Origin: Patescibacteria group bacterium
Lineage (GTDB): Bacteria; Patescibacteriota; Minisyncoccia; Phycocordibacterales; UBA918
DNA length: 53,286 bases
Direction: 5' to 3'
Assembly (NCBI GenBank): GCA_019752815.1
Contig: JAIELQ010000015.1
Location: forward strand, 1 to 53,286
Shown here one piece after another: positions 25,773 to 44,688 of this stretch (the first letter of the stretch is position 1; each line of letters starts with the position of its first letter). A model generated the notes under the pieces. The model was not told the origin of the DNA, did no database searches, and saw nothing but the letters and a program-made list of their open reading frames with translations. The position numbers were made by a program, and so were the translations under genes.

Positions 25773-27086
25773 ATGCTCGTCATATATATGAACAAACAAA
25801 CTACTTTTTATCATATCCTCGGGAACAACCTGCTCGCGGGTATCACCAACAACCTCGTCTGGTTTGCGCTCACATTCTGGGTCTATATTGAGACACAATC
25901 GGTACTGGCAACGTCCTGGATAGCGGGCACGTTCGCCATTGCGGGGGTATTTGGTGGTTTTATCTTTGGACCGATCGTCGACCGCGAACGAAAAAAGTCA
26001 GCCCTGATACAATCGAGCATCATGTCACTTATTGCCTATAGTATTGGTGCTCTCATTTATTTTTCATACCCAGAAACCACCTGGCAGGAACCATTTTCAC
26101 CAATCTTATGGACACTCATTGTGGTCCTGATGCTGGGAGTGGTAGCAAACAATCTACGGATGATTGCCCAATCAACAATTGTCACTATGCTCTTTGACGA
26201 TAATCGTGACAAGGCCAATGGACTGGTTGGTGCCTCTATGGGTCTTTCATTTGCGATTACCTCAGTTTTTAGTGGGCTCATCATCGGATTTTTCGGGATG
26301 GGAACGGCAATTGTCGTCGCAATAATCGCCACCCTCGTTGCCCTCCTGCACCTTGTATTCATTGCGTTGCCCGAGAAAGAAATTGTGCATTTAGAAGACA
26401 AGCCAAAACGCATCGACATCAAAGGTTCGTATATTCTGGCGGCGGCTGTTCCGGGACTAATCGGTATCATTATTTTTAATACCTTTAATAACTTCCTCGG
26501 TGGGGTCTTTATGGCTCTCATGGACCCCTACGGACTATCGCTCGTATCTGTTCAAACCTGGGGACTCTTGTGGGGAGCAGTGAGTGTAGCCAGTATCGGT
26601 GGGAGTATTTATGTCAGTATGCGTGGTGTGGGTAAACACCCCATGCGACTGATTATGATACTCAATATCGTCATGTGGGCAGTATGTCTCATCTTCCCCC
26701 TGCAACCACTAGTATCGCTACTACTTATTGGAATGCTCACGTGGATGATTTTCTTTCCCGTTATTGAAGCAGCTGAACAAACAGTGATGCAGTCGGTAGT
26801 TCCCTTTGAACAGCAGGGGCGAGTATTCGGTTTTGCCCAAAGCATCGAAAATATGGCCACACCAGTTACCACCTTTATGATTGGACCAATTGCTTCATTC
26901 ATATTTATACCATTTATGACCACCGGAAGTGGCGCTGCCTTAATCGGTAACTGGTTTGGTGCAGGGGCTGACCGAGGAATGGCCCTCGTATTTATCCTCG
27001 CTGGGTTCTTGGGTATCATCGCGACACTGATAGCCTGGGGATCACGTTCATACAAACTGCTATCGGGACACTACCAAAAAGCGTAA
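25773..27086 (+). CDS. MFS transporter (DHA3/macrolide efflux-like)
   Basis: About 12 TM helices, GPIVDR..KK motif A, Q..VP.EQQGRVFG. Confidence 0.9.
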   Translation: MLVIYMNKQTTFYHILGNNLLAGITNNLVWFALTFWVYIETQSVLATSWIAGTFAIAGVFGGFIFGPIVDRERKKSALIQSSIMSLIAYSIGALIYFSYPETTWQEPFSPILWTLIVVLMLGVVANNLRMIAQSTIVTMLFDDNRDKANGLVGASMGLSFAITSVFSGLIIGFFGMGTAIVVAIIATLVALLHLVFIALPEKEIVHLEDKPKRIDIKGSYILAAAVPGLIGIIIFNTFNNFLGGVFMALMDPYGLSLVSVQTWGLLWGAVSVASIGGSIYVSMRGVGKHPMRLIMILNIVMWAVCLIFPLQPLVSLLLIGMLTWMIFFPVIEAAEQTVMQSVVPFEQQGRVFGFAQSIENMATPVTTFMIGPIASFIFIPFMTTGSGAALIGNWFGAGADRGMALVFILAGFLGIIATLIAWGSRSYKLLSGHYQKA

Positions 27087-27152
27087 CTCTCACTACAAAT
27101 CGTGCCAACTTCCTGATTACTCCAAAAGACTTCATAAATTGGATGAGGTTCG

Positions 27153-27218
27153 AGGCGCGGCAAGCGTATAAGAGGAGACGTACTTATTGTACGTTGACGA
27201 ATATAGGCGCTGACGCAA
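27153..27218. repeat. REP-like palindromic element with GTAC core between convergent genes
   Basis: AGGCGCGGCAAG..GAG-ACGTAC-TTATT-GTACGT-TGA..ACGCA, same skeleton as 14227-14301. Confidence 0.6.
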
Positions 27219-27245
27219 CAAAGAAACTCGCCGATTTTGGAGTCT

Positions 27246-28502
27246 TTATCTAATGACGCTGGCTACTGCTTTCACTAATCCCGGAGTCATCACCGGTGGA
27301 ATAACATTTTCAGCTGTTGGATTTTTAACTAAACTGGCAATTTTCTTGGCAGCAGCTAATTTCATATCAACGGTAATGGCTCGGACATTAAGATCAAGCG
27401 CACCCCGGAACACACCCGGGAAAGCGAGCGAGTTATTTACCTGATTAGCATAATCACTACGTCCAGTAGCGACCACTGCTGCCCCAGCCCGTTTAGCATC
27501 TTCGGGCATTATTTCTGGAATCGGGTTGGCAAGCGCAAACACAATTGCGGCGCCCGCCATTTTTTCAATATGAGCGGGGGCAATTGTTCCCGGTCCTGAG
27601 ACACCCACAATTACATCAGCACCTGTCACCACACTCATCACATCGCCCATTAATTTTTCTGGGTTAGTCGTGCTTGCAAGTTCTTTTTTATAGCCTGTGA
27701 GATCCGGACGTCCAGCATAAATTGCGCCTTTGCTGTCGGTCACAATAATCTGACTGATGCCCGCTTTTTGTAACATCAGGGTCACTGCTCGTCCGGCGGC
27801 ACCAGCCCCCACAATCACCACCTTGAGCGATTCAAGTTTTTTACCAACTACTTTGCTCGCATTAATGAGTCCTGCTAACACCACAATCGCTGTCCCGTGC
27901 TGATCATCATGCATCACCGGAATGTCGAGTTCTTTTTTCAAACGTTCTTCGATGATAAAACAATTGGGCGCTGAGATATCTTCGAGATTAACCCCCCCGA
28001 ATGTTGGTGCAATAGCTTTTACAATTTTAATGATCTCTTCTGGGTCTTGGGTATCAAGCACGATTGGAAACGCATCAACCCCCGCCATTTCTTTAAAAAT
28101 GGCACACTTCCCCTCCATGACTGGCAGTGCTGCCAGTGCGCCGAGATTACCCAAACCAAGCACCGCTGAGCCGTCAGAGATTACCGCTACGGTATTTTTC
28201 TTAATAGTATATTCTCGCGCTTCTTTTGGATGCTTTGCAATATAAGAAGACACGGCACCTACACCCGGACTGTACATCGTACTCCAATCATCACGGGTTT
28301 CGAGTTTGCCTTTACTGACCACTGACAATTTCCCTTTAAGTTTTTTATGCAGTGCGAGCGCCAATTTGTTATAGTCTTTTTTCTTAGCGGCTGGTGTCAC
28401 TTTTTTTGCCGGGACTTTAGATAAAGTTTTTTTAGGCACCGCCTTGGTAACTTTTTCTTTTTTTACAACTTTTTTAGCGACTGTTTTTTTCTGATTTGGC
28501 AT
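27246..28502 (-). CDS. NAD(P)-dependent malic enzyme (short bacterial type) with Lys-rich N-terminal tail
   Basis: YSPGVG, DGSAVLGLGNLG, VMEGK, NLEDISAP.CF, HDDQHGTAIV, ALANP.PEI.P. Confidence 0.95.
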   Translation of the reverse strand: MPNQKKTVAKKVVKKEKVTKAVPKKTLSKVPAKKVTPAAKKKDYNKLALALHKKLKGKLSVVSKGKLETRDDWSTMYSPGVGAVSSYIAKHPKEAREYTIKKNTVAVISDGSAVLGLGNLGALAALPVMEGKCAIFKEMAGVDAFPIVLDTQDPEEIIKIVKAIAPTFGGVNLEDISAPNCFIIEERLKKELDIPVMHDDQHGTAIVVLAGLINASKVVGKKLESLKVVIVGAGAAGRAVTLMLQKAGISQIIVTDSKGAIYAGRPDLTGYKKELASTTNPEKLMGDVMSVVTGADVIVGVSGPGTIAPAHIEKMAGAAIVFALANPIPEIMPEDAKRAGAAVVATGRSDYANQVNNSLAFPGVFRGALDLNVRAITVDMKLAAAKKIASLVKNPTAENVIPPVMTPGLVKAVASVIR

Positions 28503-28591
28503 GACAATAAAATTTATACCAAATTATAGCAGATATGAAAAAACTCGCTTAAAGCGAGAATTGGAGTTTACATAAAAATATAAGTCAGGTA

Positions 28592-28621
28592 GCAGTGCAA
28601 AGGTTTTCACCTTTGCACTGC
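28592..28621. terminator. Stable hairpin, likely terminator
   Basis: GCAGTGCAAAGG/CCTTTGCACTGC perfect 12-bp stem. Confidence 0.55.
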
Positions 28622-28969
28622 CGACTGAGACTGGTCTTGCGGACTTACACAGACGTATTCGTCCGCTGCCAATTCATCCACCTCAAAAGCAAGGGTTTCG
28701 GGTGGTGTGAATTGGCAGAAAGAACAGTCGAATACTTCATTCTGTACCTCTTTGAGTGTTTCGTTTCAACGTGGATTTTACTCCACCGATGACCTGGCCA
28801 CGCCCCTTGCGTGCCAAATTTATAGTACGCCTGGTTTTTTAAATTGTCAAAATAATTTAGGTGCAAACTAACATTGGCAAAAGAAAAGACTCGAGTGTCA
28901 TTTCTTTTTTTAAGAAAGACAAACGAGTCTATGAATGGAGGGGCACCGGGGCGCCCCTCCCCTGTATTG

Positions 28970-29365
28970 TCACGACGGCAACGGTTGTGCCGACATGTTG
29001 TTCGGAGTCAGCGCGTGGCCGGCCGAGGTCGCCAGCTTCGAAACGGCATGACTGGCGCGACTCGAGATAGACATGATGAGCGCCCAGACAGCCAGCAGCA
29101 TCACAACAATGGTCGAGGGCGAGCCATGGCGACCCCCAGCGCCCAGGCCATCGGCCCGCGAGACGTGTCCATGTCCGGTCACGCGATGATCAGTGGCGTC
29201 CGCGACGGATGCCAGCATCAGTTTCAGCCTGGGTACGGTGTCTGATGCGACAACCAGCACGATGGCCAGCACTGCGAGCAGAATCGCCAACCCTGGCGAG
29301 AACGCGACGGCGCATAGGGCGGTTGCCCCCAGCGCCCCAACAAGCAGAATCTTCTTCATCGGAAT
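28970..29365 (-). CDS. Hypothetical membrane protein, GC-richer than flanks (start at MKKILL)
   Basis: GGGGA SD-like sequence before ATG, hydrophobic segments, hairpin GGAGGGGC/GCCCCTCC just downstream. Confidence 0.5.
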   Translation of the reverse strand: MPMKKILLVGALGATALCAVAFSPGLAILLAVLAIVLVVASDTVPRLKLMLASVADATDHRVTGHGHVSRADGLGAGGRHGSPSTIVVMLLAVWALIMSISSRASHAVSKLATSAGHALTPNNMSAQPLPS

Positions 29366-29511
29366 AATCCCCCTCAAGAACATGGACCGCATCATCGCGA
29401 CCAATCCTGTAAATATATAAAAAAGTCTTTTGCTTGTAAAGCAGCCAGAACGAAAAAGACCACCACGCCAATACAGCAGCCGTACTGTATAATCTATATA
29501 CCTCTACCGTT

Positions 29512-31710
29512 ATGAAACCCACCGACCTCCTCACTGCCCATTTTCGGGTTGATGCCCCGCACCAAAAAGCACTCAAGAAACTTGGTATCGCTACGGTAGC
29601 TGATTTGCTAATGCACCTCCCCGCCCGGTACGAAGATGTGTCGGATATTCAGTCAGTCGGCGGTCTACAAAAAGACCAAGAGGCCATAGTGTTCGGACAA
29701 CTGTCAGGACTAAAGTTACGCAAAGCCTGGAAAAGTAAACGGCCCATAGCCGAAGGGTATATCGAAGACGGTTCCGCCAAAATTAAAATCATGTGGTTTA
29801 ACCAGCCCTACCTCGCAAAAATGTATAGCGACGGGATGTACGTAAAATTGGTGGGAAAAGTAACCGGCAGCGACGGCAAACTGTATATCGCTAATCCCGA
29901 GGTCGAAAAATTGGATGCCCTACCGATTGACCGGCACGATAGTATTTTCAAAGGGACTGACGCGAACATGGACGAGACCATTTATCCGGTGTATCGCGAA
30001 ACCAAGGGAGTAACGAGTAAGTGGTTTTACCACACGGCCCTGAAATGTTTTGAAGCGGGTGTGCTCGAGACCATGACTGACCCTATTCCCCTATCGATAC
30101 TCGAGAAATACAAACTACCAGTTTTAAAAACAGCACTCGTCTGGATTCATTCCCCAAAAAAAGCAGAGCATGCGCAAAGTGCACGAAAGCGATTTGCCTT
30201 TGAAGAAGTATTTTATATCCAAACCCAAAAAGCGATTGACCGAGCTATGGTATCGGCTGCTTCAACGTATCAAGTAAACACTGATCCAAAGCATCTCAAA
30301 CAGTTCACTGACCGTTTTCCGTTTGAATTAACCGAGGCGCAAACGACCTCAATTGCCTCCATCATTGATAGCTTTACCAAAAACCACGCCATGTCGCGGT
30401 TGCTCGAAGGTGATGTAGGCAGTGGTAAGACCGCCGTAGCTGCGACCACTGCCTACGCGGTAGCTACCAGTCGTCCACCCGAAGGGATAAAAAGTGAGAG
30501 CGGTAAAGTAAGCGACCTTGCATTCGGTAACCTCCAGGTAGCGTACATGGCACCCACTGAAATTCTAGCCAAACAACACTTTGAATCGTTTATTGAATAT
30601 TTCAAACACCTACCGATTAACATCGGACTCATTACTGGTTCCGGCTGTCAAAAGTTCCCTAGCAAAAGCAACCCAAATAAGCCGACCCCAATTTCACGGG
30701 CTCAGTTACTAAAATGGGTGAAAAATGGCGAGGTACCGATTTTGATTGGGACCCATGCCCTCATTTATAAGAGTGTAGAATTTAAACATCTTGCCTACGT
30801 CATTATCGACGAACAACACCGCTTTGGAACCAATCAGCGTAAACAGCTGGCCAAAAAAGATGCCCGGATGCCGCACCTACTGTCGATGACCGCCACCCCT
30901 ATTCCTCGTACGCTCGCACTCACTATTTATGGAGATCTTGATATCACCTTGCTCGATCAAATGCCAGCCGGACGAAAACCAATTATTACGGAAATCATCG
31001 GACCGGGACAATCAGCCAAAATGTATGAACATGTACGCAGCGAACTACAATCGGGTCGCCAAGCGTACGTCATCTGCCCACGCATCGAAGAACCTGACCC
31101 CGACAAACAAACTGCCCTGCAGCTAAAGTCTGTGGTGGCGGAAGCCAAACGATTAGCCACTACTGAATTTCGTGATTACACCATCGGCGTGATGCACGGC
31201 AAAATGACGCCAGCTGATAAAGACAAAGTAATGAAGGAATTTGCCGAACACCAACTGGATATTCTCGTGGCTACTTCGGTGGTGGAAGTTGGGGTAAATG
31301 TACCGAACGCCACAAACATTATTATTGAAGGTGCTGAACGGTTTGGATTGTCGCAACTTCACCAACTCCGCGGACGCGTCGTGCGCGGTACCCACCAACC
31401 ATACTGCTTTGCGGTTACCGATAGTAAAGGTGACAAAACCAAAGAACGGCTCAAAGCGCTCGTGACTGCTAAAAATGGATTTGAACTCGCCGAACACGAT
31501 TTGAATTTCCGTGGCTCGGGAGAACTCTATGGTCAAAAACAATCTGGACTATCGGACCTCGGAATGGAAGCAATAAAAAATTTAAAATTGGTTGAAGCCG
31601 CCCGAACTGAAGCTCAGCATCTGGTCGCAACTCCTCCTCATATCGCTAAAGACTTCCCACTGATTGCCGAGCGAGTGGCGAAACTGGGCGAGAGTTTACA
31701 TATGGAATAA
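29512..31710 (+). CDS. recG: ATP-dependent DNA helicase RecG
   Basis: P.RYED wedge domain, LEGDVGSGKT, MAPTEILAKQH, IDEQHRFG, MTATPIPRTL, LHQLRGRV. Confidence 0.97.
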   Translation: MKPTDLLTAHFRVDAPHQKALKKLGIATVADLLMHLPARYEDVSDIQSVGGLQKDQEAIVFGQLSGLKLRKAWKSKRPIAEGYIEDGSAKIKIMWFNQPYLAKMYSDGMYVKLVGKVTGSDGKLYIANPEVEKLDALPIDRHDSIFKGTDANMDETIYPVYRETKGVTSKWFYHTALKCFEAGVLETMTDPIPLSILEKYKLPVLKTALVWIHSPKKAEHAQSARKRFAFEEVFYIQTQKAIDRAMVSAASTYQVNTDPKHLKQFTDRFPFELTEAQTTSIASIIDSFTKNHAMSRLLEGDVGSGKTAVAATTAYAVATSRPPEGIKSESGKVSDLAFGNLQVAYMAPTEILAKQHFESFIEYFKHLPINIGLITGSGCQKFPSKSNPNKPTPISRAQLLKWVKNGEVPILIGTHALIYKSVEFKHLAYVIIDEQHRFGTNQRKQLAKKDARMPHLLSMTATPIPRTLALTIYGDLDITLLDQMPAGRKPIITEIIGPGQSAKMYEHVRSELQSGRQAYVICPRIEEPDPDKQTALQLKSVVAEAKRLATTEFRDYTIGVMHGKMTPADKDKVMKEFAEHQLDILVATSVVEVGVNVPNATNIIIEGAERFGLSQLHQLRGRVVRGTHQPYCFAVTDSKGDKTKERLKALVTAKNGFELAEHDLNFRGSGELYGQKQSGLSDLGMEAIKNLKLVEAARTEAQHLVATPPHIAKDFPLIAERVAKLGESLHME

Positions 31711-32049
31711 CTATACTAGCGCTTTACGATATAAGATTGAAGTACAAAATATAAGCGCTGTGATGATCATTGCAAAAATGCAGACACCTAAAAGTGGGTG
31801 CGTGGTTGGTTGCTCCAAATTAAAAGTATCTACCACCGTTAGTAACGAAATTACTGTAATGCCGAAGCTGTAGAGAGAGTCTAAAATTATAATTACCAAA
31901 CCCCGAGCGCTCCACAGATACACCCTGGATACTTCGGTACGCAACCTTTTACCTCTTTCTAAAAAATTAATTACTTGATATGGAATAAACACTAGAAAAA
32001 TCGCAATAAATACAAAGTAACTTACGTAGGCGGATATCATATAGATCAC
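31711..32049 (-). CDS. Hypothetical membrane protein (112 aa)
   Basis: Three hydrophobic segments; converges exactly on the recG stop. Confidence 0.6.
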   Translation of the reverse strand: MIYMISAYVSYFVFIAIFLVFIPYQVINFLERGKRLRTEVSRVYLWSARGLVIIILDSLYSFGITVISLLTVVDTFNLEQPTTHPLLGVCIFAMIITALIFCTSILYRKALV

Positions 32050-32097
32050 ATAATAACATTACCTCTTAATCTAGATTAATCACCACCCCACAGAAAA

Positions 32098-32120
32098 CGA
32101 CCCCTCATATGGAGGGGTCG
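32098..32120 (-). terminator. Intrinsic terminator
   Basis: CGACCCCTC/GAGGGGTCG stem followed by TTTTC on minus strand. Confidence 0.65.
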
Positions 32121-32169
32121 GAGCATATGCTCAAAAGAGTTGGGGCGAGTGTCTGCCTATTAAATAGCA

Positions 32170-32440
32170 AAAAGGCCAACTCAGGGAGCTGGCCTTTTAA
32201 GGTTCTTGGTAGACTCAGCACCAAAAGAGCGAAGGGCTGCTACCGAGATACTGGATCACCTCCTTTCGACCGGACAATGGCCAGAATATGACGATTGCGC
32301 GGCAGTCCTCACAAATCAAAACGTGGTGGATGTCCGTCAGAATTGGACGGATTCACGCACTCGAAGGCGACGGAACGTTTGACTGAAGTTTTTGAAGATG
32401 ACCTCCTGCAAAGGACTGGAGCAAACGCTGCTTCCAGTTA
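32170..32440 (-). ncRNA. Candidate structured ncRNA containing a 17-nt complement of the 16S rRNA 3' end
   Basis: GAAAGGAGGTGATCCAG at 32251-32267 (minus); hairpins ACTGGA/TCCAGT and TCCGTC/GACGGA; terminator AAAAGGCCA/TGGCCTTTT at 32170-32198; boundaries uncertain. Confidence 0.45.
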
Positions 32441-32552
32441 CTAGTAAACACCCAAACTAATATCTTGGCAAGACAACCGAGGTGACATTGACGCGTTGGG
32501 CGTTTTTTATATCGTTAGAGAAACAAGTTCATTTCTAAACCAGGGGGACCAG

Positions 32553-32747
32553 ATGCATCAACAAGTCGCTGAACTTCGAGAAGTCAAACCACAGAACATG
32601 GTACATGGTTTTGATATCGAAGTGATTCGCCATGACGAGAACTTGCTACAGGGCCAGGTACACGCTGAATTTTTTGTAACTGTTTTGTGCAAATTAATGT
32701 ACTGTGCGATGGCACAAACCCAGATTACCCACAACCAAATGCTCTAA
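32553..32747 (+). CDS. Hypothetical small protein (from MHQQVA)
   Basis: GGGGG SD-like sequence before ATG; no recognisable motif. Confidence 0.35.
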   Translation: MHQQVAELREVKPQNMVHGFDIEVIRHDENLLQGQVHAEFFVTVLCKLMYCAMAQTQITHNQML

Positions 32748-32986
32748 CGTTGCTAGTGACCCGATATGCTTACGCGCATGAATAAGTAGGTATCTCCCTC
32801 AATTCTAATATCGCGATGATCATTCTAAAATGGTACGAGATACTACACGCGGTGGGTGTATTTGAAATCAAAGAAGATGACGTCACTAGCCCGGTGTTAA
32901 TCATCTGGATAAAAAACACCCGAACAGATACTACGTTCACGGCTGTGTATAGACTGGCCACAAAAGTGAATCGGATACATTGAAGC

Positions 32987-33013
32987 AAACGCGGGCTAAG
33001 TAAGCCCGCGTTT
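32987..33013 (+). terminator. Intrinsic terminator
   Basis: AAACGCGGGCT/AGCCCGCGTTT stem with T-run. Confidence 0.65.
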
Positions 33014-33078
33014 TCATATTTAAAACATAAAATCCATTAATTCGACAGTACCTGCATATCGACTTATACTACAGTCCT

Positions 33079-33711
33079 ATGACAACAATAATTGAAAATT
33101 TGAAATGGCGATACGCCACCAAAGGGTTTGATACGAGCAAAGAATTACCCGCTGCGGATTTAGACTATATCTTAGAAGCAGGACGAATGAGCGCGACCTC
33201 ATTTGGATTGCAACCGTTTAAAATTGTAATGGTAACAGATGAAGCAAAGAAGCAAACTCTCATGGGTCATGCCTGGAACCAGGCACATGTCGGTGAAAAT
33301 AGTGCCTTGATTATTCTCGCTGCGCGCACTGATGTGGATGAAGCGATGATCGCAGACTACACCGCTCGCATTGAAGCCACTCGCGGACTACCTGCTGGAG
33401 CGGTTGATGGATACAAGGACATGATGGTAGGTAGTCTCACGAGTCGACCGATTGAACACCGCACCATCTGGGCACAAAAGCAATGTTATATCGCCCTTGG
33501 TACCATGATGATGGCCGCGGCTGAACGTGGTGTTGACAGTTGCCCAATGGAAGGCTTTTCAAGTGAAGGTTTTGACGAAGTACTAGGACTCACAGCACAC
33601 AACCTGACAGCGAGTGTTATTCTACCTGTTGGCTATCACGCCGAAAGTGACGCGACGCAACATTACGCTAAAGTTCGTCGCACTGCTGAAGACATGATTG
33701 TGCGGATGTAA
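33079..33711 (+). CDS. Nitroreductase-family NAD(P)H oxidoreductase
   Basis: WRYATK.FD, SATSFGLQP, W..KQ.YIALG, DSCPMEGF, GY. Confidence 0.93.
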   Translation: MTTIIENLKWRYATKGFDTSKELPAADLDYILEAGRMSATSFGLQPFKIVMVTDEAKKQTLMGHAWNQAHVGENSALIILAARTDVDEAMIADYTARIEATRGLPAGAVDGYKDMMVGSLTSRPIEHRTIWAQKQCYIALGTMMMAAAERGVDSCPMEGFSSEGFDEVLGLTAHNLTASVILPVGYHAESDATQHYAKVRRTAEDMIVRM

Positions 33712-33731
33712 GTTAAAATACAGTAATTGAG

Positions 33732-33766
33732 AAACGGGCGGAGCAATTAATTGCCCCGCCCGTTTT
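33732..33766. terminator. Bidirectional terminator
   Basis: AAACGGGCGG/CCGCCCGTTT stem between convergent genes. Confidence 0.7.
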
Positions 33767-34142
33767 ATGCAATTTCGCTTAGGTCATACACGGTGTACCC
33801 TGCCCAGCGCAGTTCTTTTACCAAAAGTGGCAAGCTATCTGAGATGGCAAGCACCACCTCCCCATACACCGCCGCGAACCACGGCACTTGTACATCTCCG
33901 CTAAACTGGGATTTCCAAAATGCTTTTTCAGAATTAAAGAGTGTTCGAACCTCAACTCTTTTTTGCGATCTTTCAGACGGACTTTTTGGCAACGCCTGCT
34001 GCCGCCAAGATTCGATGATTGCTGTCACAGAAGTCGTAGAAAGACGATCTTTCATAATGTGCTCCCGCTGGTTACTAACTGTTTCTAGTACCAGTATGAC
34101 ACAACTACCAGAAAAAACCTCGCGTTGTACAGAGAGGTCCAA
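33765..34142 (-). CDS. Hypothetical protein (start uncertain)
   Basis: ORF ends at the shared terminator; no motif. Confidence 0.45.
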   Translation of the reverse strand: MDLSVQREVFSGSCVILVLETVSNQREHIMKDRLSTTSVTAIIESWRQQALPKSPSERSQKRVEVRTLFNSEKAFWKSQFSGDVQVPWFAAVYGEVVLAISDSLPLLVKELRWAGYTVYDLSEIA

Positions 34143-34262
34143 ATACTGTATACCCTGCCCTAAATTATTGGGTGTCTTGTAGATACATTACGTATTAAAA
34201 AACCATGTATCGTAATCCGTATTTTGCAAAATGAGTTAGGGCGGGGTATAGTTTTAGCCTAT

Positions 34263-34335
34263 CCATCCATAGCTCAGTTGGTAGAGCGTTCGTCTTATAC
34301 ACGGATGGTCCTTGGTTCGAATCCAAGTGGATGGA
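34263..34335 (+). tRNA. trnI: tRNA-Ile(UAU)
   Basis: CCATCCA/TGGATGG acceptor, TTCGT-CTTATAC-ACGGA anticodon arm (anticodon TAT), CTTGG-TTCGAAT-CCAAG T arm, A73. Confidence 0.92.
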
Positions 34336-34338
34336 CAT

Positions 34339-34998
34339 TTATACTGAATATTTAGTTCTTAAATATTTAATACCCTCTAGGACATATTCATACGTATCTC
34401 GTTCATGGTAAATAACCGAACATGTACCATGCGAAAACATTCCTTTGTAACTTTTGCTTTTTGAAGAAGTTGTTTTTTGATACGATTTATAATAATTTGT
34501 CATTGGAACACCGGTGATTTTTGACCAATATTTTTTGAGCTCTGCTTCATTTTGATCAGTGTATAAATGTAATTTAATCTTTAGACTATTAGGTGTAATT
34601 TTAAATTTGTATAACCAATCCACAAAGCATTTAATTATTGCAGGATCAGTATTTGTTAACGCAATAGAATATTCTGCACTTTTAGTACCTTCGCCCCAAT
34701 ACAAGTAAAATCCAGCTACAAATTCTGGGTCTTTTGAATTTTCTATATCGAAAGCTACTTTTTGGTAAACTGATTTTCTGCGAGCGTCTTTTTTATTTTG
34801 TTTCGTAATTCTATTTTTTTCTATTCGTATCTCACTGTTACTTTGTAATTCAGAAATTCTTTTATCTGAAAGCGGTAAATCTTTGAGCCATCCACTTAAG
34901 GTACTTTTACTAATACCTAATTCAGCTTTAATCATCGAATAACTATGACCTTTAGATCTCAAATTACGAGCTTTTTCTTTTTCAATTGAACGTGCCAT
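34339..34998 (-). CDS. HTH + LAGLIDADG-like domain protein, AT-rich, convergent on tRNA-Ile
   Basis: N-terminal HTH (G.SYS.I..ELGISKSTLS.W) and GFYLYWGEG.K..L.NTDP motif. Confidence 0.7.
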   Translation of the reverse strand: MARSIEKEKARNLRSKGHSYSMIKAELGISKSTLSGWLKDLPLSDKRISELQSNSEIRIEKNRITKQNKKDARRKSVYQKVAFDIENSKDPEFVAGFYLYWGEGTKSAEYSIALTNTDPAIIKCFVDWLYKFKITPNSLKIKLHLYTDQNEAELKKYWSKITGVPMTNYYKSYQKTTSSKSKSYKGMFSHGTCSVIYHERDTYEYVLEGIKYLRTKYSV

Positions 34999-35110
34999 AT
35001 TAATTATATACTTGGCGTTCCCTGGTTCAGTTAATTATACACCTAACTATGAGATTTGTTTGTTTCTATCCCCGTAATAGAACCCTAACCAATCCGGCCT
35101 GAGTGATACA

Positions 35111-36634
35111 ATGAATAAAATGTTTAGTTTTGTTCGTCAACATCATGTACTCACGGGAGGCATTGTTATAGCTATGTTAGCTGGAAGTTATTTTGTATAC
35201 GAGAGAATTAATCGCGACCCACTTGAAGGGCTAGTCACTACGACTATAGAACGTGGGACCGTTGAGAAATTGGTTTCGGTCTCAGGTATAACAAAAGCTC
35301 GAAATACGGCCGAGCTGGGATTTCCATCCCCAGGTACGGTCTCAAAAGTGTACGTACGCGAAGGCGACACTGTTGTGGGAGGAACAATACTAGCAACCTT
35401 GGGAGCAGATGAACTTGTAGCGGCGCGGGCGAGCGCACTTGCGGACCTTGCAGTGGCACAAGCAGATAGAGCTGAATTAGTCACCGGTGACACAATTACA
35501 GAACGAGATATCACCGAGACCAAAGTAGCCATCGCAGAAGCAGAACTAAAACGTATTGAAGAGACGCAGGCAGTTCTGATTGCTAATGCCAAACGGGCCC
35601 TACGTTCCGGAACACCAATTGCTCGCAGTGAGGATGCAGACGAGTCGGCTCCTGCCCCGACTATTTCTGGAACCTATCGCTGCGAGAAAGAAGGTTCGTA
35701 CATCCTCACGGTGTACCGTTCTGGAGCAGATTCAGGTTACTCAATGCGCATTACCGGACTGGAAACTGGCAGTGCAAGCGTATCGACTGACCAACCAACT
35801 CCCTTTGGAACTTGTGGTTTATTTGCACTATTCACTGATGGTGCACAGTATAGTAACTCGGTTTGGACCGTAACAATTCCCAATACCACCGGGGAAAGCT
35901 ACACCATTAACAAAAATGCCTTGGCGGCAGCTGAAAATACAGCCCGCACCAGTATTGCCGCAGCCAAACAAGCACTTACTCTAGCGCAACAAGAACAAGC
36001 TTCGATCAATGCTGCACCTCGGAGCGAAGCCCTAGCGAGAGCTAACGCCCGCATCAATAAAGCCAGCGCCACCATCGCCCAAATTGATGCTCAAATTGGC
36101 GACCGAGCAATTATCGCACCATTTAGCGGCACTGTGACTAAAGTTGACATTGTCGCAGGAGAAACTACCGGCACCCTTCCCCTCTTTACATTACTCTCTA
36201 CCGACGATATCGAATTGAAGGCCCGTATTCCTGAAATTGACATTACAACAATCACCACAGGGCAATCTGCCCGCATCATATTTGACGCTGAGCCATCCAC
36301 ACCACTTTCGGGCGTTGTAACCTATATTTCGCCACTGCCAACTGAAATTGATGGAGTGAGCTATTTTGAAATTACCATCATCTTAAACACCAGACCAGAC
36401 TGGCTCCGTTCTGGATTAAATGCTGATATTGATATCATTACTGAGTTTACCGAAAATTTGTTACGTATACCAAAACGGTATCTTGTCGAAAATAGCGAGG
36501 GAGCGTTTATTCGAGTGTTGCAAGACTCACAAATTGCCACATCTTCTGTACTCAAAGAATACGAAGGGAACGACGGTTGGGTAGGTATTACCGGTGTTGG
36601 CGTTACCGAAGGAATGGTAATTGTAAATCCGTAG
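35111..36634 (+). CDS. Efflux periplasmic adaptor subunit (HlyD/MacA-like)
   Basis: N-terminal TM, G.V..V.V.EGD.V lipoyl half, coiled coil, APFSG.V. Confidence 0.88.
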   Translation: MNKMFSFVRQHHVLTGGIVIAMLAGSYFVYERINRDPLEGLVTTTIERGTVEKLVSVSGITKARNTAELGFPSPGTVSKVYVREGDTVVGGTILATLGADELVAARASALADLAVAQADRAELVTGDTITERDITETKVAIAEAELKRIEETQAVLIANAKRALRSGTPIARSEDADESAPAPTISGTYRCEKEGSYILTVYRSGADSGYSMRITGLETGSASVSTDQPTPFGTCGLFALFTDGAQYSNSVWTVTIPNTTGESYTINKNALAAAENTARTSIAAAKQALTLAQQEQASINAAPRSEALARANARINKASATIAQIDAQIGDRAIIAPFSGTVTKVDIVAGETTGTLPLFTLLSTDDIELKARIPEIDITTITTGQSARIIFDAEPSTPLSGVVTYISPLPTEIDGVSYFEITIILNTRPDWLRSGLNADIDIITEFTENLLRIPKRYLVENSEGAFIRVLQDSQIATSSVLKEYEGNDGWVGITGVGVTEGMVIVNP

Positions 36635-36638
36635 AACT

Positions 36639-37886
36639 ATGAACATATTTCGGATTGGATTATTGCTTGGAATTCGACAAATACAACGAGCCAGTATTTG
36701 GACAAACATCTTAATTGTGTTTGTTATGGCATTAACATTCCTTAATCTTATTGCCGTATCCGGAATTCTCGTGGGACTGATTGTAGGATCTGAGCGCGCT
36801 CTCCAAGAAAAATCACTTGGCGATATCATTGTAACTACCAAAGATAACGAGACCACTATCATTGACACTCCCGCCTTTACACGAGTGCTCGACAGCATCC
36901 CCGAAATACAAGACTATACCGTTCGCTTTAAAGAAGGGGCTCAAGTTGAAGCAAACTACAAAACACGACGTGATTTAAGTCAGGATAAAAATGTTATTTC
37001 AGGGAGCATTGTAGGTATTGACCCCATCAAAGAAGATGCAGTAACTGGGCTATCAACCACGGTTGTTGAGGGTGAGTATCTCGACACTAGTGAAGATGGC
37101 TATCTGCTACTAGGAGCACTTACCCTAGATAGATACACCGCGGGATTTGCTGATATCACCGGTTCACTTGAAAATATCTATCCAGGCGACACAGTTCGAG
37201 TAACGATTGGACAAAATACGAAAGAGTTTTTTGTTAAAGGAATCATTAATGCTAAGGCAGGTGAAGTGTCTCGCTCGATATATATACCTGAGCGTGAATT
37301 GCGACGTCTCGGTAATCGCGTGACGCAAGATGCTGAAGAAATAGCCATTCGCCTGCAAGCAAATACTGACGCAACGATGGTAAAAAATGCCCTGATTAAT
37401 TCAGGACTGGCTGAACAAGCTAAAATCAGAACTTTTAACGAGGCTTTACCTAAATTCTTAGTAGATATCAAAAACACCTTTAATGTACTGGGCACCTTTA
37501 TCGGTTCTATTGGAATTATTGTTGCTTCTATCACCATATTCATTATTATCTTCATTAACGCGCTAGCTCGCCGGCGGTTCATTGGTATTTTAAAAGGTAT
37601 CGGAATTGACCGGACCGCTATTGAAATTGCGTATGTAATTCAAGCTGGTGTCTATGCACTTGCTGGCTCACTAATTGGAGTAGTTATCACCTACGCTATT
37701 CTCATTCCCTACTTTGATGCTAACCCGATTAATTTTCCGTTTAGTGATGGTATTTTAGTCGCTGAACCAATTGGCACTCTTGTTCGCTTCATCACACTAT
37801 TTATCATTACCCTGCTTGCTGGATACATCCCCGCCTGGATGATTGCGCGCGGGAATACGCTTAATGCTATTTTAGGAAGAAAATAA
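36639..37886 (+). CDS. ABC transporter permease (MacB/FtsX-like)
   Basis: TM - large extracellular domain - 3 TM; RR.IGILK.IG. Confidence 0.88.
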   Translation: MNIFRIGLLLGIRQIQRASIWTNILIVFVMALTFLNLIAVSGILVGLIVGSERALQEKSLGDIIVTTKDNETTIIDTPAFTRVLDSIPEIQDYTVRFKEGAQVEANYKTRRDLSQDKNVISGSIVGIDPIKEDAVTGLSTTVVEGEYLDTSEDGYLLLGALTLDRYTAGFADITGSLENIYPGDTVRVTIGQNTKEFFVKGIINAKAGEVSRSIYIPERELRRLGNRVTQDAEEIAIRLQANTDATMVKNALINSGLAEQAKIRTFNEALPKFLVDIKNTFNVLGTFIGSIGIIVASITIFIIIFINALARRRFIGILKGIGIDRTAIEIAYVIQAGVYALAGSLIGVVITYAILIPYFDANPINFPFSDGILVAEPIGTLVRFITLFIITLLAGYIPAWMIARGNTLNAILGRK

Positions 37887-37891
37887 TCACC

Positions 37892-38599
37892 ATGTCACAA
37901 ACATCAACACCTATCATCACCGCAGTCGGGATTACCAAATCATTTGGTTCGGGTGATTTGTTTACGACTATCCTCAAGGGTATCGATGTGACAATTATGC
38001 AGGGAGAATTTGTCGCCATTATGGGTAAATCAGGCGCTGGTAAATCTACACTCATGTACCAACTCTCGGTCCTCGATGAACCAACAAGTGGAACTCTCAC
38101 CATTGCAGGTGAATCAATTGAGCGCAAAAATGAACAAGAGCGAACACAGTTTCGCTTGCAAACTCTCGGGTACGTGTTCCAGGACTATGCGCTCGTACCA
38201 GATCTCAACGCCGAAGAAAATGTAATGATACCGCTCGTGATGCGGGGCATGAATTGGACTGAGGCAAAAACAGTCGCTCAAGCCGCTATTGCTGCAGTCG
38301 GGTTACCGACCAAATACAAAAATCTCCCGAGCGAACTCTCAGGTGGAGAACAGCAACGAATTGCGGTCGCACGCGCCGTAGCTGGCAAGCCAAAAATTCT
38401 GTTTGCAGATGAACCCACCGCTAACCTTGATAGTTTTTCAAGTCAGCAGGTTATTGATTTAATTACGTCCTTGAATCGTGATTTTGGCCAAACCATTGTG
38501 ATGGTAACGCACGAACGAGAATACGCCCTCGGCTGTAACCGTATCATTCACATGGAAGACGGGCTAATCATTCGTGAGGAAATACTGAAACCAATGTAA
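37892..38599 (+). CDS. ABC transporter ATP-binding protein (LolD/MacB-like)
   Basis: GKSGAGKST, LSGGEQQRIAVARA, DEPTANLD, VTHE. Confidence 0.96.
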   Translation: MSQTSTPIITAVGITKSFGSGDLFTTILKGIDVTIMQGEFVAIMGKSGAGKSTLMYQLSVLDEPTSGTLTIAGESIERKNEQERTQFRLQTLGYVFQDYALVPDLNAEENVMIPLVMRGMNWTEAKTVAQAAIAAVGLPTKYKNLPSELSGGEQQRIAVARAVAGKPKILFADEPTANLDSFSSQQVIDLITSLNRDFGQTIVMVTHEREYALGCNRIIHMEDGLIIREEILKPM

Positions 38600-38615
38600 C
38601 ATCACTAATGCAATC

Positions 38616-38647
38616 AAAAAATCGTCGGCACTAAGCCGACGATTTTT
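38616..38647. terminator. Bidirectional terminator
   Basis: AAAAAATCGTCGGC/GCCGACGATTTTT. Confidence 0.75.
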
Positions 38648-38661
38648 ACTGTTGTGTAGTT

Positions 38662-40776
38662 CTATTTTGAAGCGTGTAGTACCGCAGTTGGATCCGCGAC
38701 TGCCTCATCGAGGTCACGCTGTTTCTTGTACGCGTCGTTAATCATCACTCCCTCTTGTTTGAGTAATGCTTCATACTCTTCCCGTTCAAGTGTCTCCACT
38801 TCAGCTAAACGAATAGAAATGTTATCGAGGGCGGTGCGGTATTTGGTCAAAATCTCACGTGCTTTCTCCATTCCGTCGTGAATAATTTTATTTACTTCAT
38901 CATCAATGGCTTTGGCGATTTGTGGTGAGAATCCACGGTCTTCACTCATACCACCACCAAGCATCCGACCCCCCGTTCCCTCGTACGCGATTGGACCGAG
39001 CGTATCGCTCATTCCCCATTTCGTTACCATATCGCGTGCTAGGTTGGCGACTACCTGCAAGTCATTACTTGGACCAGTTGTCAGGTCGTCAAACACCATT
39101 TGTTCAGTGACATACCCCCCGAGTGTCATCGCGATGTCATCGAGGAATTCTTTTTTCGAATGCATCTTGCGGTCTTCATCTGGAAGTTTCAGAGTATATC
39201 CGGCTGCCCGACCACGAGAAATAACAGAAATCTTTTGGACTGGGTCAGCGTACGGCAGGACTGAGGCCACAAGAGCGTGCCCTACTTCGTGGTAGGCAGT
39301 AACTAATTTCTCGCGCTTACTGAGTACATGACTCTTGCGTTCTGGACCGAGCATTACTTTTTCAATCGAGCGAATCAAATCAAATTGACCAACTTTTTTG
39401 CGCAATTCACGGGCAGCCAAAATTGCTCCTTCGTTCATCAGTGAATACAAATCTGCTCCTGAAAATCCTGGGGTTCGTTGCGCAATAATGTCGAGATTTA
39501 CATCCTCTTGGAGTGGCTTCTTGCGAGCATGTACTTCGAGAATTGCCTTGCGGTCATGACGGTCTGGCAAATCAATCGTCACTCGCCGATCAAACCGCCC
39601 CGGACGAAGCAACGCAGGATCTAGCACATCAGGACGGTTGGTCGCCGCCATCACAATTACCTTGGCATTAGGTTCAAACCCATCCATCTCAACGAGAATT
39701 TGGTTAAGGGTTTGTTCTCGTTCGTCGTTTCCGCCACCGACACCGGTGCCACGCACCCGACCCACGGCATCAATTTCATCGACGAAAATAATAGACGGCG
39801 CTGACTTCTTGGCCATTTGGAATAAATCACGCACTCGTGACGCACCCACACCCACAAACATTTCCACGAACTCAGAACCAGAAATACTGAAAAATGGAAC
39901 ACCGGCTTCCCCGGCTACGGCACGGGCGAGCAAGGTCTTCCCCGTTCCGGGTGCGCCCATCATCATCACACCCTTTGGAATCTCTGCTCCGATATCGAGA
40001 AACTTTTTCGGATTCTTAAGGAAGTCGACGATTTCTTCGAGCTCTTGTTTTGCTTCTTTGGCACCAGCTACGTCTTTAAAGGTGACCTTTTTGCTGGAAT
40101 CATTTGGATCAATCATCCGTGCTTTACTACTGCCAAACGACAGAGCCTGCATCCCCGCTCCTTTTACTGAACGAGTTAAAAACCAAATGATAATACCCAG
40201 GAACAAAAGCGGGAACAGAAACGGTGCAAACTGTGATAACCAGTACCCAAAACCAGTTTCGCGCTGCACATCAATGGTGATTGAAGCGAGCTGTTCCGCT
40301 GATACACCGAGATTTGTCAGGGAGTCAGAGACTGAGGCGTCGGTTTCGCGTTTTGCTTCACCTTTGTTGCGCGTTTCATCACGATACGACACTTCAAGCA
40401 TCGCTCCGCGAACGATAATTTCTTTGACTTCGTTATTCTTTACCTGCCCCACTACATCCGAGATAGTGAGTTCTTCTGGAGGAACACTGGTATCAGTGAG
40501 ATACGAAAACGCCATGGTAATAAATACCAACAGGAGTACTGTCGACAACATATTGTTCCAAAAATTGCCTGGACCAACCGGCATGTTTTTACCAACCTTG
40601 CGTAGCTTCTCACCGGCTGAGTCTTTCTTTTTTGTGTTTTGGTCAACTGGCTTTTCCTCAGGAACTTTTGGAGCTTCCACCCCTGGCATCACCTCATTTT
40701 GGGAGGTATTTTCTTCGGGTAATTTGTTTTTTTCTGTTTCTGACATAGTACGGTCATTATACAGAAAACGAGTCAT
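38662..40776 (-). CDS. ftsH: ATP-dependent zinc metalloprotease FtsH (start probably 40746)
   Basis: Two TMs, [27 protein letters not shown] Zn motif. Confidence 0.98.
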
Positions 40777-40861
40777 TTTGCTAATTATTTGACTTGCCCA
40801 GCCCTTGTTACATTTGCAGTAAAATTACAATTATCTGTTTACGGAGTAGCTAGGGCGGGGT

Positions 40862-41326
40862 ATGATGAGCCACACAGACATGAGTAACTACGCCCAAAAC
40901 AAAAAAGCCCATTTTGACTACGAAATTCTCGAAACCTTCGAGGCGGGATTAGTATTGCTCGGAACCGAGGTTAAATCCATCCGAGCCGGCCGGGTCAAGC
41001 TCGACGGAGCACACATTGTAGTTCGAGGCGGTGAAGCCTATTTGGTAAATAGCAGTATTGCCGCCTTCCAGCCCATTAACACCCCCAAAAGCTATGACCC
41101 GGAACGAGTCCGCAAGCTACTCCTTTCCCAAAAACAACTGACCCTGCTCCACCGTCAGACCGAGCAGTCTCATTTGACAGCTATTCCTTTATCGTTGTAT
41201 AGTAAAGGAAGCAAAATTAAGCTCAGTTTAGCAATTGCGCGCGGCAAAAAGAAAGCCGATAAACGCGAAAGTCTAAAGGAGCGCGATGTCAAACGTGACA
41301 TCGACCGTACCTTAAAATCACAATAA
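40862..41326 (+). CDS. smpB: SsrA-binding protein
   Basis: NKKA.FDY.I....EAG.VL.G.EVKSIR, RKLLL, GKKK.DKRE. Confidence 0.97.
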   Translation: MMSHTDMSNYAQNKKAHFDYEILETFEAGLVLLGTEVKSIRAGRVKLDGAHIVVRGGEAYLVNSSIAAFQPINTPKSYDPERVRKLLLSQKQLTLLHRQTEQSHLTAIPLSLYSKGSKIKLSLAIARGKKKADKRESLKERDVKRDIDRTLKSQ

Positions 41327-41381
41327 ACTTAGTTACAGGAAGGTGGTTCAATGAGGGACCCCATAAAAGAAACAGCGTGCA

Positions 41382-41702
41382 ATGTCACGCAAACGAACGA
41401 GGAAAAAGATGACAGGTATTTATGATGCGCTTCAGGAAGCGGTACCGCAGCTACAGAATATCGGTTCATTCAATCCGAAAAAACTCGATCCGGAATGGAA
41501 GGACTGGCTCATGCGAGCTGAACGTGTCTACATCGACACGTTCGCAGGGGACTTCAAGCTTTTTTTCGGGGCCGTCGCCACAGTGTACAAAAACGCACTG
41601 GACGAAGAGACCGATCCTGAACAAGACATCCAAGACTGGATAATGGCCGAGATTGCAGTGCTCGAAGCAAAAAGCCTCAAAGCTCGGATCCAGACACAAT
41701 GA
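41382..41702 (+). CDS. Hypothetical protein
   Basis: 106-aa ORF followed by hairpin GTGCGGACGA/TCGTCCGCAC (41711-41734). Confidence 0.55.
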   Translation: MSRKRTRKKMTGIYDALQEAVPQLQNIGSFNPKKLDPEWKDWLMRAERVYIDTFAGDFKLFFGAVATVYKNALDEETDPEQDIQDWIMAEIAVLEAKSLKARIQTQ

Positions 41703-41793
41703 CAAAAATAGTGCGGACGACTTATCGTCCGCACCACCTTTCTGTAACTAAGTTGGAAAAGTTGTAAATCAATCAACAAACGAGGGAAAATAC

Positions 41794-41988
41794 ATGGCTG
41801 ATTATGGCATGGGTGGCTGCTTTACTGCAGTTGACTGGATAAAGGTGACGGGAAAAGAAGGTCTCAAAACTCTTAAGTCAGAGGACCTGGCTCTGCTTCG
41901 CGAACAAGGCATCATCAACCAAGACGGTGAGATCGAACCCGATCGATTGACACTTGCTCTGATGGAGAACAATCATGTTCCCCAGTAA
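41794..41988 (+). CDS. Hypothetical small protein
   Basis: GAGGG SD-like sequence; overlaps the next ORF by 14 nt. Confidence 0.5.
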   Translation: MADYGMGGCFTAVDWIKVTGKEGLKTLKSEDLALLREQGIINQDGEIEPDRLTLALMENNHVPQ

Positions 41989-43443: not shown

Positions 43444-43448
43444 GTATC

Positions 43449-44638: not shown

Positions 44639-44640
44639 GG

Positions 44641-44667: not shown

Positions 44668-44688
44668 TGTCTTCTGGGGATTGGTCGA

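What the first reader, a model, noticed from the sequence alone, without database searches (positions are those of the whole stretch)
32170..32440. Extended anti-16S sequence with no start codon inside a terminated, structured RNA
Seen: the minus strand carries GAAAGGAGGTGATCCAG (32251-32267), complementary over 17 nt to the conserved 16S rRNA 3' terminus (CTGGATCACCTCCTTTC). No ATG/GTG/TTG follows at initiation spacing. Two hairpins lie upstream, and two tandem terminators downstream (32170-32198, 32098-32120). The surroundings are not 16S sequence. Inference: in a genome whose core genes appear SD-less, this could be a 30S-binding, sequestering or rRNA-processing sRNA, or drive a non-AUG small peptide (ATC-initiated ISVAALRSFGAESTKNLKRPAP).
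Basis: partly seen in the sequence, partly recalled or inferred. Interest (0 to 1): 0.7.

Follow-up and report, generated by a model that had tools for sequence, protein, structure and literature searches.

The report
Small RNA with a masked super-Shine-Dalgarno
In a Patescibacteria (CPR) genome whose genes lack ribosome-binding sites, this is a separately transcribed, abundant small RNA of about 275 nt that carries a 17-base perfect match to the ribosome's mRNA-docking tail plus an imperfect internal copy of that tail that can cover it, so it probably works by docking ribosomal small subunits, though its function is untested.

Summary
GAAAGGAGGTGATCCAG lies on the minus strand at 32267-32251, is far beyond chance, has no start codon at initiation spacing, and is followed by two intrinsic terminators. 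It is not a 16S fragment.

It sits inside a roughly 275-nt small-RNA gene (about 32439-32167, minus strand). The gene has its own promoter and a 5' hairpin that covaries across seven Patescibacteria homologues. In a wastewater metatranscriptome, the only two full-length contig matches across 20 kb of the window are this RNA and tmRNA.

All homologues share one plan:
- a 5' hairpin;
- a YCUUU motif;
- an AGGAG;
- an imperfect mimic of the 16S 3' tail that can pair with the downstream super-SD;
- in five relatives, a 16-23-codon ORF of non-conserved sequence that starts right after the mimic and stops 1-2 nt before the super-SD;
- 3' hairpins and a terminator.

In the window that stop is CGA, so the ORF reads through.

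The only Rfam lead is a sub-threshold match to CC2171, an alphaproteobacterial sRNA of unknown function with the same motif and also an internal tail mimic.

Binding to 30S is inferred, not shown. The ATC-peptide idea is not supported.

The parts
32466..32471 (-). -35 box TTGCCA of the RNA's promoter
   Evidence: TTGCCA/TTGTCA/TTGCAT/TTGCGA sits 17 nt before TTTACT in all seven homologues, and conservation begins here.
32443..32448 (-). -10 box TTTACT, inside the conserved GGGTGTTTACTAGT; predicted start of the RNA about 32439-32436
   Evidence: Invariant in seven homologues. The transcription start is inferred, not mapped. The X6 RNA-seq contig runs up to 32450.
32416..32437 (-). 5' hairpin P1 (CUGGAAGC-AGCGUUU-GCUCCAG)
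   Evidence: The inner four pairs are paired in 7/7 homologues with 3-5 pair types each. The G.U pairs fit only the minus strand.
32409..32415 (-). YCUUU motif (UCCUUUG)
   Evidence: Present after P1 in six of seven homologues. It can pair with the GAAAGG half of the super-SD or with the AGGAG just downstream.
32394..32407 (-). AGGAG plus 16S-tail mimic 'a' (AGGAGGUCAUCUUC)
   Evidence: Occupies the same position as GAUCACCUC, GGAUCACCACCUU and GGUCACCCCUU in relatives. By my hand alignment it gives 10 contiguous pairs (3 of them G.U) with the super-SD (sequences).
32363..32371 (-). Second tail-like segment GUCGCCUUC
   Evidence: Partner of the super-SD in the minimum-energy fold and the best duplex, -13.3 kcal/mol.
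32332..32350 (-).
   Evidence: Present in the minimum-energy and centroid folds. Lies in about 85 nt that the relatives lack.
32215..32319 (-). Short ORF (TTG, 34 codons) preceded by AUCCACCAC (32331-32323). Codon 18 (CGA) takes the place of the UGA/UAG stop that ends the 16-23-codon ORF in relatives
   Evidence: Alignment with L123 GACGGAGGUCACCACCUUG.
32270..32302 (-).
32251..32267 (-). Super-SD GAAAGGAGGUGAUCCAG, followed by UAUCUC
   Evidence: The core AGG(A/G)GGU(G/A)AUC is conserved in all homologues. Predicted duplex with a canonical 16S tail is -23.5 kcal/mol.
32208..32244 (-). 3' hairpin GGUAGCAGC..GCUGAGUCUACC
   Evidence: Its sequence is not conserved in relatives.
32170..32198 (-). 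Intrinsic terminator 1
   Evidence: 13-bp stem plus T run. Every homologue has a terminator at this position.
32098..32120 (-). Intrinsic terminator 2 (back-up)
32488..32515 (+). Divergent promoter (TTGACG-16-TATCGT) of the neighbouring plus-strand gene
   Evidence: Conserved in L121 and L122.
32553..32985 (+). Pseudogene of a 144-aa lineage-specific protein that often sits next to the RNA
   Evidence: tblastn against the L122 protein matches frame 1 at 32562-32678, then frame 3 at 32642-32980 with in-frame stops.

Best explanation
This is a stand-alone small-RNA gene of about 275 nt on the minus strand, from about 32439 to 32167, belonging to a Patescibacteria family that is not in Rfam. Shown: it has its own promoter, a covarying 5' hairpin and intrinsic terminators, and it appears in a metatranscriptome at about the depth of tmRNA. 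Its conserved core consists only of ribosome-docking signals. These are an AGGAG, an imperfect copy of the 16S 3' tail, a short ORF of non-conserved sequence that begins right after that copy and (in relatives) stops 1-2 nt before the second signal, and a 12-17-nt 'super-SD' with no usable start codon behind it. Inferred mechanism: in the resting RNA the tail copy pairs with the super-SD (-11 to -16 kcal/mol), which hides both the super-SD and the short ORF's ribosome-binding site. The true 16S tail pairs much more strongly (about -23.5 kcal/mol), so a 30S subunit, or a ribosome finishing the short ORF, can displace the copy and stay docked on the super-SD without initiating. The RNA would then act as a translation-gated 30S-docking RNA: either a decoy/sensor for free subunits or a ribosome-protected stable RNA. 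In the window copy the stop before the super-SD is lost (CGA) and about 85 nt are inserted, so it is a variant of the plan and may be partly decayed.
For: The motif is real and non-random. Seven homologues share promoter, P1, YCUUU, AGGAG plus mimic, super-SD and terminator, in different contexts: the recG-nitroreductase gap, or next to pyrB. P1 covaries and its G.U pairs fit only this strand. The short ORF starts at RNA position 51-55, has 16-23 codons and stops 1-2 nt before AGGNGG in five homologues, with unrelated peptides. The minimum-energy folds pair the super-SD with the upstream mimic in five of seven homologues (L121, L122, L126, L131, L136); in the window it pairs with a second tail-like segment and in L123 with YCUUU. 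Duplexes are stronger than in shuffles in every case, 3-88 of 500 shuffles reaching the observed value, and in six of seven (all but the window) lie beside the ORF start. No start codon follows at SD spacing in the window, L121, L122, L123 or L131; L126 has UUG and L136 GUG at that spacing, heading short unrelated ORFs. In RNA-seq run X6, the only full-length contigs over window 26000-45900 are this RNA (32256-32450, 0 differences, depth 20.8) and tmRNA (depth 19.9). Run X11 has a contig at 32210-32357. Window genes lack SD sequences. CC2171-type RNAs carry the same motif and an internal CUGGAUCnnnGCCUC partner.
Against: Nothing shows 30S binding. The genome's own 16S 3' end was not seen. The mimic:super-SD helix rests on conserved complementarity and one-sided changes, not on compensatory changes, because the super-SD hardly varies; per-sequence shuffle tests are weak for the window and L122. 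Only seven related sequences were available. RNA-seq evidence comes from unstranded contigs, and the X6 contig starts about 11 nt upstream of the predicted start. The window and L136 lack the short ORF in its typical form. The RNA is absent from this locus in several close relatives (L124, L134, L138-L145), so it is not essential there.
Confidence: 0.5

Rival explanations
1. The super-SD is only a stabiliser, as with STAB-SD. A bound 30S shields the RNA from nucleases, and the RNA's actual job (for example base-pairing through its 3' part) lies elsewhere.
For: GAAAGGAGG without a start codon is exactly the STAB-SD sequence described for Bacillus thuringiensis cryIIIA (my own knowledge; reviewed in PMC4113751, found but not read). 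The RNA is abundant.
Against: The 3' part is not conserved among homologues, while the SD and tail-like parts are. The motif lies 100-175 nt from the 5' end, behind a 5' hairpin that could already protect that end. No coding gene follows before the terminator.
Confidence: 0.2
2. It is a tiny mRNA. The point is to translate the short ORF, or a former two-cistron pair, and the super-SD is the ribosome-binding site of a second mini-ORF that is being lost.
For: An AGGAG plus start codon plus open frame is conserved in five homologues. L136 and the CC2171 RNAs have GUG 7 nt after the motif, and L126 has UUG. Stop-plus-SD junctions are ordinary in phages.
Against: The peptides share no sequence and differ in length. 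The frames after the motif are broken by indels between close relatives L121 and L126. Five of seven homologues have no start codon after the motif.
Confidence: 0.15
3. It is a protein decoy. The helix between the tail mimic and the super-SD imitates the 16S 3' tail, or the SD:anti-SD duplex, and titrates a protein that recognises it (for example Era, KsgA/RsmA, YbeY, bS21 or a tail-cutting toxin).
For: Both strands of an SD:anti-SD-like duplex are conserved within one RNA, here and in CC2171. The locus is a variable spot that carries RelB antitoxin genes in relatives. A lineage-specific protein gene is often divergent from the RNA.
Against: No candidate protein was identified. The neighbouring 144-aa protein has no family or fold match and is missing in three of seven loci. 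This rival is purely inferential.
Confidence: 0.1
4. It is not an RNA gene of its own: a 16S gene fragment, a plus-strand 5' leader of the neighbouring gene, an attachment site, or chance.
For: The plus strand reads exactly like a 16S 3' end. A plus-strand gene lies next to it.
Against: No rRNA model matches. The identity to 16S ends after 17 nt. The plus-strand gene has its own promoter between itself and the element, and is absent in L123, L126 and L136. T-run terminators and G.U pairs fit the minus strand. Chance expectation is negligible.
Confidence: 0.03

Closest known systems
Rfam RF01867, Caulobacter sRNA CC2171 (Alphaproteobacteria; function unknown, expression shown by Northern blot in Methylorubrum, bioRxiv 10.1101/2022.01.24.477521)
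   Same: Shares UCGAAAGGAGGUGAUCCAGU.UCU (one position differs: A in the window for G in the consensus), a structured body and an intrinsic terminator. CC2171-type RNAs also carry an imperfect internal 16S-tail copy, (A/C)CUGGAUCnnnGCCUC, that can pair with the motif. Homologue L136 has the CC2171-type CCAGUGUCUCA.
   Different: The score is 29.2 bits against a gathering score of 75, and the middle of the model is deleted. Other Patescibacteria homologues do not hit the model at all. In CC2171 the motif is about 8-10 nt from the 5' end, is followed by GUG, and has the mimic downstream. Here the motif is about 175 nt in, the mimic is upstream, a short ORF lies between them, and no start codon follows.
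STAB-SD 5' mRNA stabiliser of Bacillus thuringiensis cryIIIA (my own knowledge; reviewed in PMC4113751, found but not read)
   Same: A GAAAGGAGG-type perfect SD that is not used for initiation and is thought to act by pairing with the 16S 3' end.
   Different: STAB-SD sits in the 5' UTR of a long protein-coding mRNA in an SD-using Firmicute. Here there is no downstream gene before the terminator, the genome is SD-poor, and the SD is masked by an internal tail mimic.
SD-dependent autoregulation of rpsU (bS21) in SD-less Bacteroidetes (PMC7797042 appeared; the details are from my own knowledge)
   Same: An isolated strong SD in a lineage that otherwise does not use SD sequences, implying a special use for the conserved anti-SD.
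   Different: There the SD drives a real gene (rpsU). Here it drives no ORF.
Fold-back masking of ribosome-binding sites (type I toxin mRNAs, IS10 transposase mRNA; my own knowledge)
   Same: An upstream anti-SD-like segment pairs over a long distance with an SD and hides it.
   Different: Those systems control a functional protein. Here the ORF peptide is not conserved or hydrophobic, no antisense RNA is seen, and the masked SD has no start codon.

Membership tests
Rfam RF01867 CC2171 | Covariance-model score at or above the gathering score (75 bits) | tested here: not met
   29.2 bits, E=0.0012. Only the 5' 26 nt and the terminator align. No hit in six homologous loci at E<=1.
Rfam RF01867 CC2171 | 5' motif GAAAGGAGGUGAUCCAGUGUCUC | tested here: met
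   One position differs (A in the window for G in the consensus).
Rfam RF01867 CC2171 | Motif within about 10 nt of the transcript's 5' end and followed by GUG at 7 nt | tested here: not met
   The motif is about 175 nt from the predicted start, and GUA stands in place of GUG.
Rfam RF01867 CC2171 | Internal imperfect 16S-tail copy able to pair with the motif | tested here: met
   Present, but upstream instead of downstream.
STAB-SD stabiliser | Perfect SD with no start codon at initiation spacing | tested here: met
STAB-SD stabiliser | Located in the 5' UTR of a protein-coding mRNA that it stabilises | tested here: not met
   Terminators follow after about 55 nt, and the gene beyond them differs between homologues.
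STAB-SD stabiliser | Stability depends on pairing with the 16S 3' end | not testable with these tools
   Needs half-life measurements with motif mutants.
16S rRNA gene or fragment | Match to an SSU rRNA model beyond the terminal 17 nt | tested here: not met
   No SSU hit at gathering or at E<=10. The flanks differ from helix 45.
Leader-peptide attenuator | A conserved downstream gene in the same orientation, controlled by the terminator | tested here: not met
   Downstream lies a small membrane-like ORF in the window, pyrB with its own promoter in L121, and the convergent recG end in L122, L126, L131 and L136.
Type I toxin-antitoxin mRNA | Conserved small hydrophobic toxin ORF plus an antisense RNA | tested here: not met
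   The peptides are unrelated and not hydrophobic. No antisense partner was looked for beyond promoter and terminator scans.

The most novel reading that the evidence does not exclude
'Super-SD' RNAs form a widespread, unrecognised class. It would include this Patescibacteria family, CC2171 in Alphaproteobacteria, look-alikes in Burkholderiales and Phycisphaerales, and start-less 3'-UTR modules on phage-like contigs. Their function would be to dock the 16S 3' tail of 30S subunits without initiating, gated by an internal tail mimic. In SD-less lineages such RNAs would be one reason the anti-SD stays conserved.
Probability: 0.2. Interest if true: 0.85.

Novelty: new variant of a known kind. Interest (0 to 1): 0.6.

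Why it matters
Many bacterial lineages, including this one, barely use Shine-Dalgarno sequences yet are generally thought to keep the anti-SD tail on 16S rRNA. An abundant small RNA whose only conserved content is a perfect docking site for that tail, plus a weaker internal copy of the tail, points to a dedicated non-initiation use of the SD:anti-SD interaction, such as subunit sensing, sequestration or ribosome-mediated RNA protection. It also gives a concrete, testable idea for CC2171, an sRNA catalogued since 2008 with no known function, in tractable hosts such as Caulobacter and Methylorubrum.

Tried and rejected
- **Alternative genetic code (UGA as sense):** considered because the frame through the motif ends at TGA. 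Rejected because long table-11 ORFs such as the 732-aa recG are intact.
- **Plus-strand leader of the neighbouring gene:** rejected. That gene has its own promoter, is absent in three homologues, and the G.U pairs and T runs fit the minus strand.
- **Literature:** no paper in the searched library describes the motif as an sRNA feature. CrfA/SisA in Caulobacter are unrelated.
- **Metagenome-contig scan with a promoter-plus-AGGAG pattern:** gave only one true homologue, L126.
- **Neighbour-gene clustering around CC2171 loci:** no shared neighbour across the loci; the largest clusters cover at most 22 of 120, and the ORFs are noisy in high-GC DNA.
- **Neighbouring 144-aa protein:** no Pfam, NCBIfam or PADLOC match, only 6 homologues, an AF2 model with pLDDT 71.6, and no PDB fold match.
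- **Raw-read RNA runs X12 and X13:** no reads at about 1% sampling.
- **Covariance model of the 5' module:** abandoned because MAFFT misplaced the stem columns. P1 pairs were tabulated by hand instead.
- **All 12 contig look-ups are used:** five RecG relatives showed no copy at this locus.

Full report
**1. Observation**

The minus strand reads GAAAGGAGGTGATCCAG at 32267-32251; the plus strand reads CTGGATCACCTCCTTTC, the canonical bacterial 16S 3' end. It is the only match in the window even with three mismatches allowed, where shuffles give 0.09.

No ATG, GTG or TTG lies 4-12 nt after GGAGG. Two minus-strand intrinsic terminators follow, at 32198-32170 and 32120-32098. Two hairpins precede the motif, at 32350-32332 and 32302-32270. 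No rRNA model matches.

Of 42 likely genes in the window, almost none has an SD, and many have a TATAAT-like box directly before the ATG. GGAGG is not avoided inside genes: 43 copies on the minus strand. The genome's own 16S is not in the window.

**2. Organism and locus**

RecG (29512-31710) has relatives at 80-95% identity labelled Patescibacteria or Paceibacteria.

In syntenic contigs the recG-nitroreductase gap is variable:
- 89 bp in L124;
- a RelB antitoxin gene in L134 and L140;
- an ATP-grasp-like gene in L123;
- 1.37 kb in the window.

A tRNA-Ile(UAU) gene lies close by.

**3. Homologues and strand**

Copies of the element occur in L121 (next to pyrB), L122, L123, L126, L131-133 and L136.

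On the minus-strand sense all of them share:
- TTGCCA-like, 17 nt, then TTTACT;
- a 5' hairpin P1;
- YCUUU (all but L136);
- AGGAG (weaker in L131 and L136);
- a segment resembling the 16S tail;
- a variable stretch;
- AGG(A/G)GGU(G/A)AUC;
- hairpins and a T-run terminator.

The inner four pairs of P1 are paired in 7/7 sequences with 3-5 pair types each. Its G.U pairs would be A.C mismatches on the other strand.

A plus-strand gene for a 144-aa protein is divergent from the RNA in the window, L121, L122 and L131. It has its own promoter (TTGACG-16-TATxxx) between itself and the RNA. It is missing in L123, L126 and L136. In the window it is a pseudogene, with a frameshift and in-frame stops. 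The RNA is therefore an independent gene.

**4. Expression**

In a wastewater metatranscriptome (run X6), only two full-length contigs match window 26000-45900. One is a 195-nt contig identical to 32256-32450 at depth 20.8. The other is the tmRNA at depth 19.9. No protein-coding gene is covered.

A freshwater RNA-seq run (X11) has a 151-nt contig over 32210-32357, the deepest of its matches in the span.

Contigs carry no strand information. The X6 contig begins about 11 nt upstream of the predicted start.

**5. Anatomy**

In L121, L122, L123, L126 and L131 a start codon sits at RNA position 51-55, immediately after the tail-like segment and 7-10 nt after the AGGAG (AAAGGA in L131). It opens a 16-23-codon frame that stops (UGA or UAG) 1-2 nt before AGGNGG. 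The peptides are unrelated.

In the window the homologous frame starts at TTG 32319. Its 18th codon is CGA where relatives have UGA, and it runs on to 32215. The window also carries about 85 extra nucleotides with two hairpins.

The tail-like segments are:

| Homologue | Tail-like segment |
|---|---|
| L121 | GAUCACCUC |
| L131 | GGAUCACCACCUU |
| L123 | GGUCACCACCUU |
| L126 | GGUCACCCCUU |
| L122 | GAUCACACCCC |
| L136 | AACCUCC |
| window | GGUCAUCUUC and GUCGCCUUC |

These segments pair with the super-SD in the minimum-energy folds of five of the seven RNAs; the window uses GUCGCCUUC and L123 uses YCUUU instead. Best-duplex energies are -11 to -16 kcal/mol, against -8 to -12.5 for shuffles (3-88 of 500 shuffles reach the observed value). 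In six of seven (all but the window) the best duplex lies next to the ORF start. The same super-SD pairs with a canonical 16S tail at -23.5 kcal/mol.

The helix is supported by conserved complementarity and wobble-compatible changes. It is not supported by compensatory changes, because the super-SD barely varies.

Sequence after the super-SD is not conserved as protein, and five of seven homologues have no start codon there.

**6. Mechanism (inferred)**

The conserved core consists only of SD-like and anti-SD-like elements, and the 3' part varies. The most economical reading is a switch in which the internal tail copy masks both the short ORF's ribosome-binding site and the super-SD. The real 16S tail wins the competition, leaving a 30S docked without initiation. 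Translation of the short ORF, which ends at the super-SD, would open the helix and deliver a subunit to it.

Whether the outcome is subunit sequestration or sensing, or simply ribosome-mediated protection of the RNA as in STAB-SD, cannot be decided here.

**7. Comparison with known families**

The only Rfam lead is RF01867 CC2171 at 29.2 bits against a gathering score of 75, driven by the 26-nt motif and the terminator. Other Patescibacteria copies do not hit it.

Nearly all are Alphaproteobacteria, with a few from Burkholderiales, Phycisphaerales and other groups. In those the motif lies just after a promoter, is followed by GUG, and in many loci has a partner (A/C)CUGGAUCnnnGCCUC about 36-40 nt downstream.

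CC2171 has no known function (bioRxiv 10.1101/2022.01.24.477521). The window RNA works on the same visible principle but fails the membership test. I file it as a new variant.

**8. Verdict**

The element is a real, conserved and expressed small RNA. The ribosome-binding idea is plausible and now sharper, but untested. The ATC-peptide idea is not supported.

Noticed in passing
L146-L194 (IMG/VR contigs), e.g. L151 motif 5627-5610 (minus strand), L158 6412-6395 (minus strand), L181 4730-4713 (minus strand), L166, L192, L148: On phage-like contigs, TGAAAGGAGGTGATC often has no start codon behind it: 28 of 36 distinct sites. Of those 28, 16 follow an open frame of at least 50 codons, 11 are followed by (A)TATCT as in the window, and 11 have a T5 run within about 95 nt. 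This looks like an 'ORF stop, super-SD, hairpin, terminator' 3'-UTR module.
   Followed up: partly
L001-L120: CC2171-type RNAs carry an internal imperfect 16S-tail copy, (A/C)CUGGAUCnnnGCCUC, about 36-40 nt after the motif. The motif also occurs in Burkholderiales (L021, L027, L098, L119) and Phycisphaerales (L019, L087), outside the family's usual Alphaproteobacteria.
   Followed up: partly
window 5239-5551 (+): The group I intron (Rfam 5268-5487, 67.8 bits) appears to interrupt a tRNA gene. A tRNA-like 5' half (GCGGGTTAGAGG...) and 3' half (...CCGGTTCGATTCCGGAACCCGCA) flank it, and ARAGORN did not call this tRNA.
   Followed up: partly
window 32553-32985 (+): Pseudogene (frameshift plus in-frame stops) of a 144-aa all-beta protein known from only 6 sequences. 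It has no family or fold match, and it sits divergently next to the RNA in four of seven loci.
   Followed up: yes
window 31711-33078; L121-L145: The gap between recG and the nitroreductase gene, near tRNA-Ile(UAU), is a variable hotspot. In relatives it holds nothing, a RelB antitoxin gene, an ATP-grasp-like gene, or this RNA.
   Followed up: partly
window 22481-22571 (-): ARAGORN calls a tRNA-Ser with anticodon ACT, which is unusual and may be a mis-read anticodon loop.
   Followed up: no
window 51000-53000: G+C rises to 0.55-0.58 against about 0.44 elsewhere. The gene at 51113-52519 is one of the few with an SD-like AAGGAG before its ATG, so this stretch may be acquired DNA.
   Followed up: no
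window 31711-32049 (-): A 112-codon hydrophobic ORF with no family match lies directly downstream of the two terminators and abuts the recG stop.
   Followed up: no
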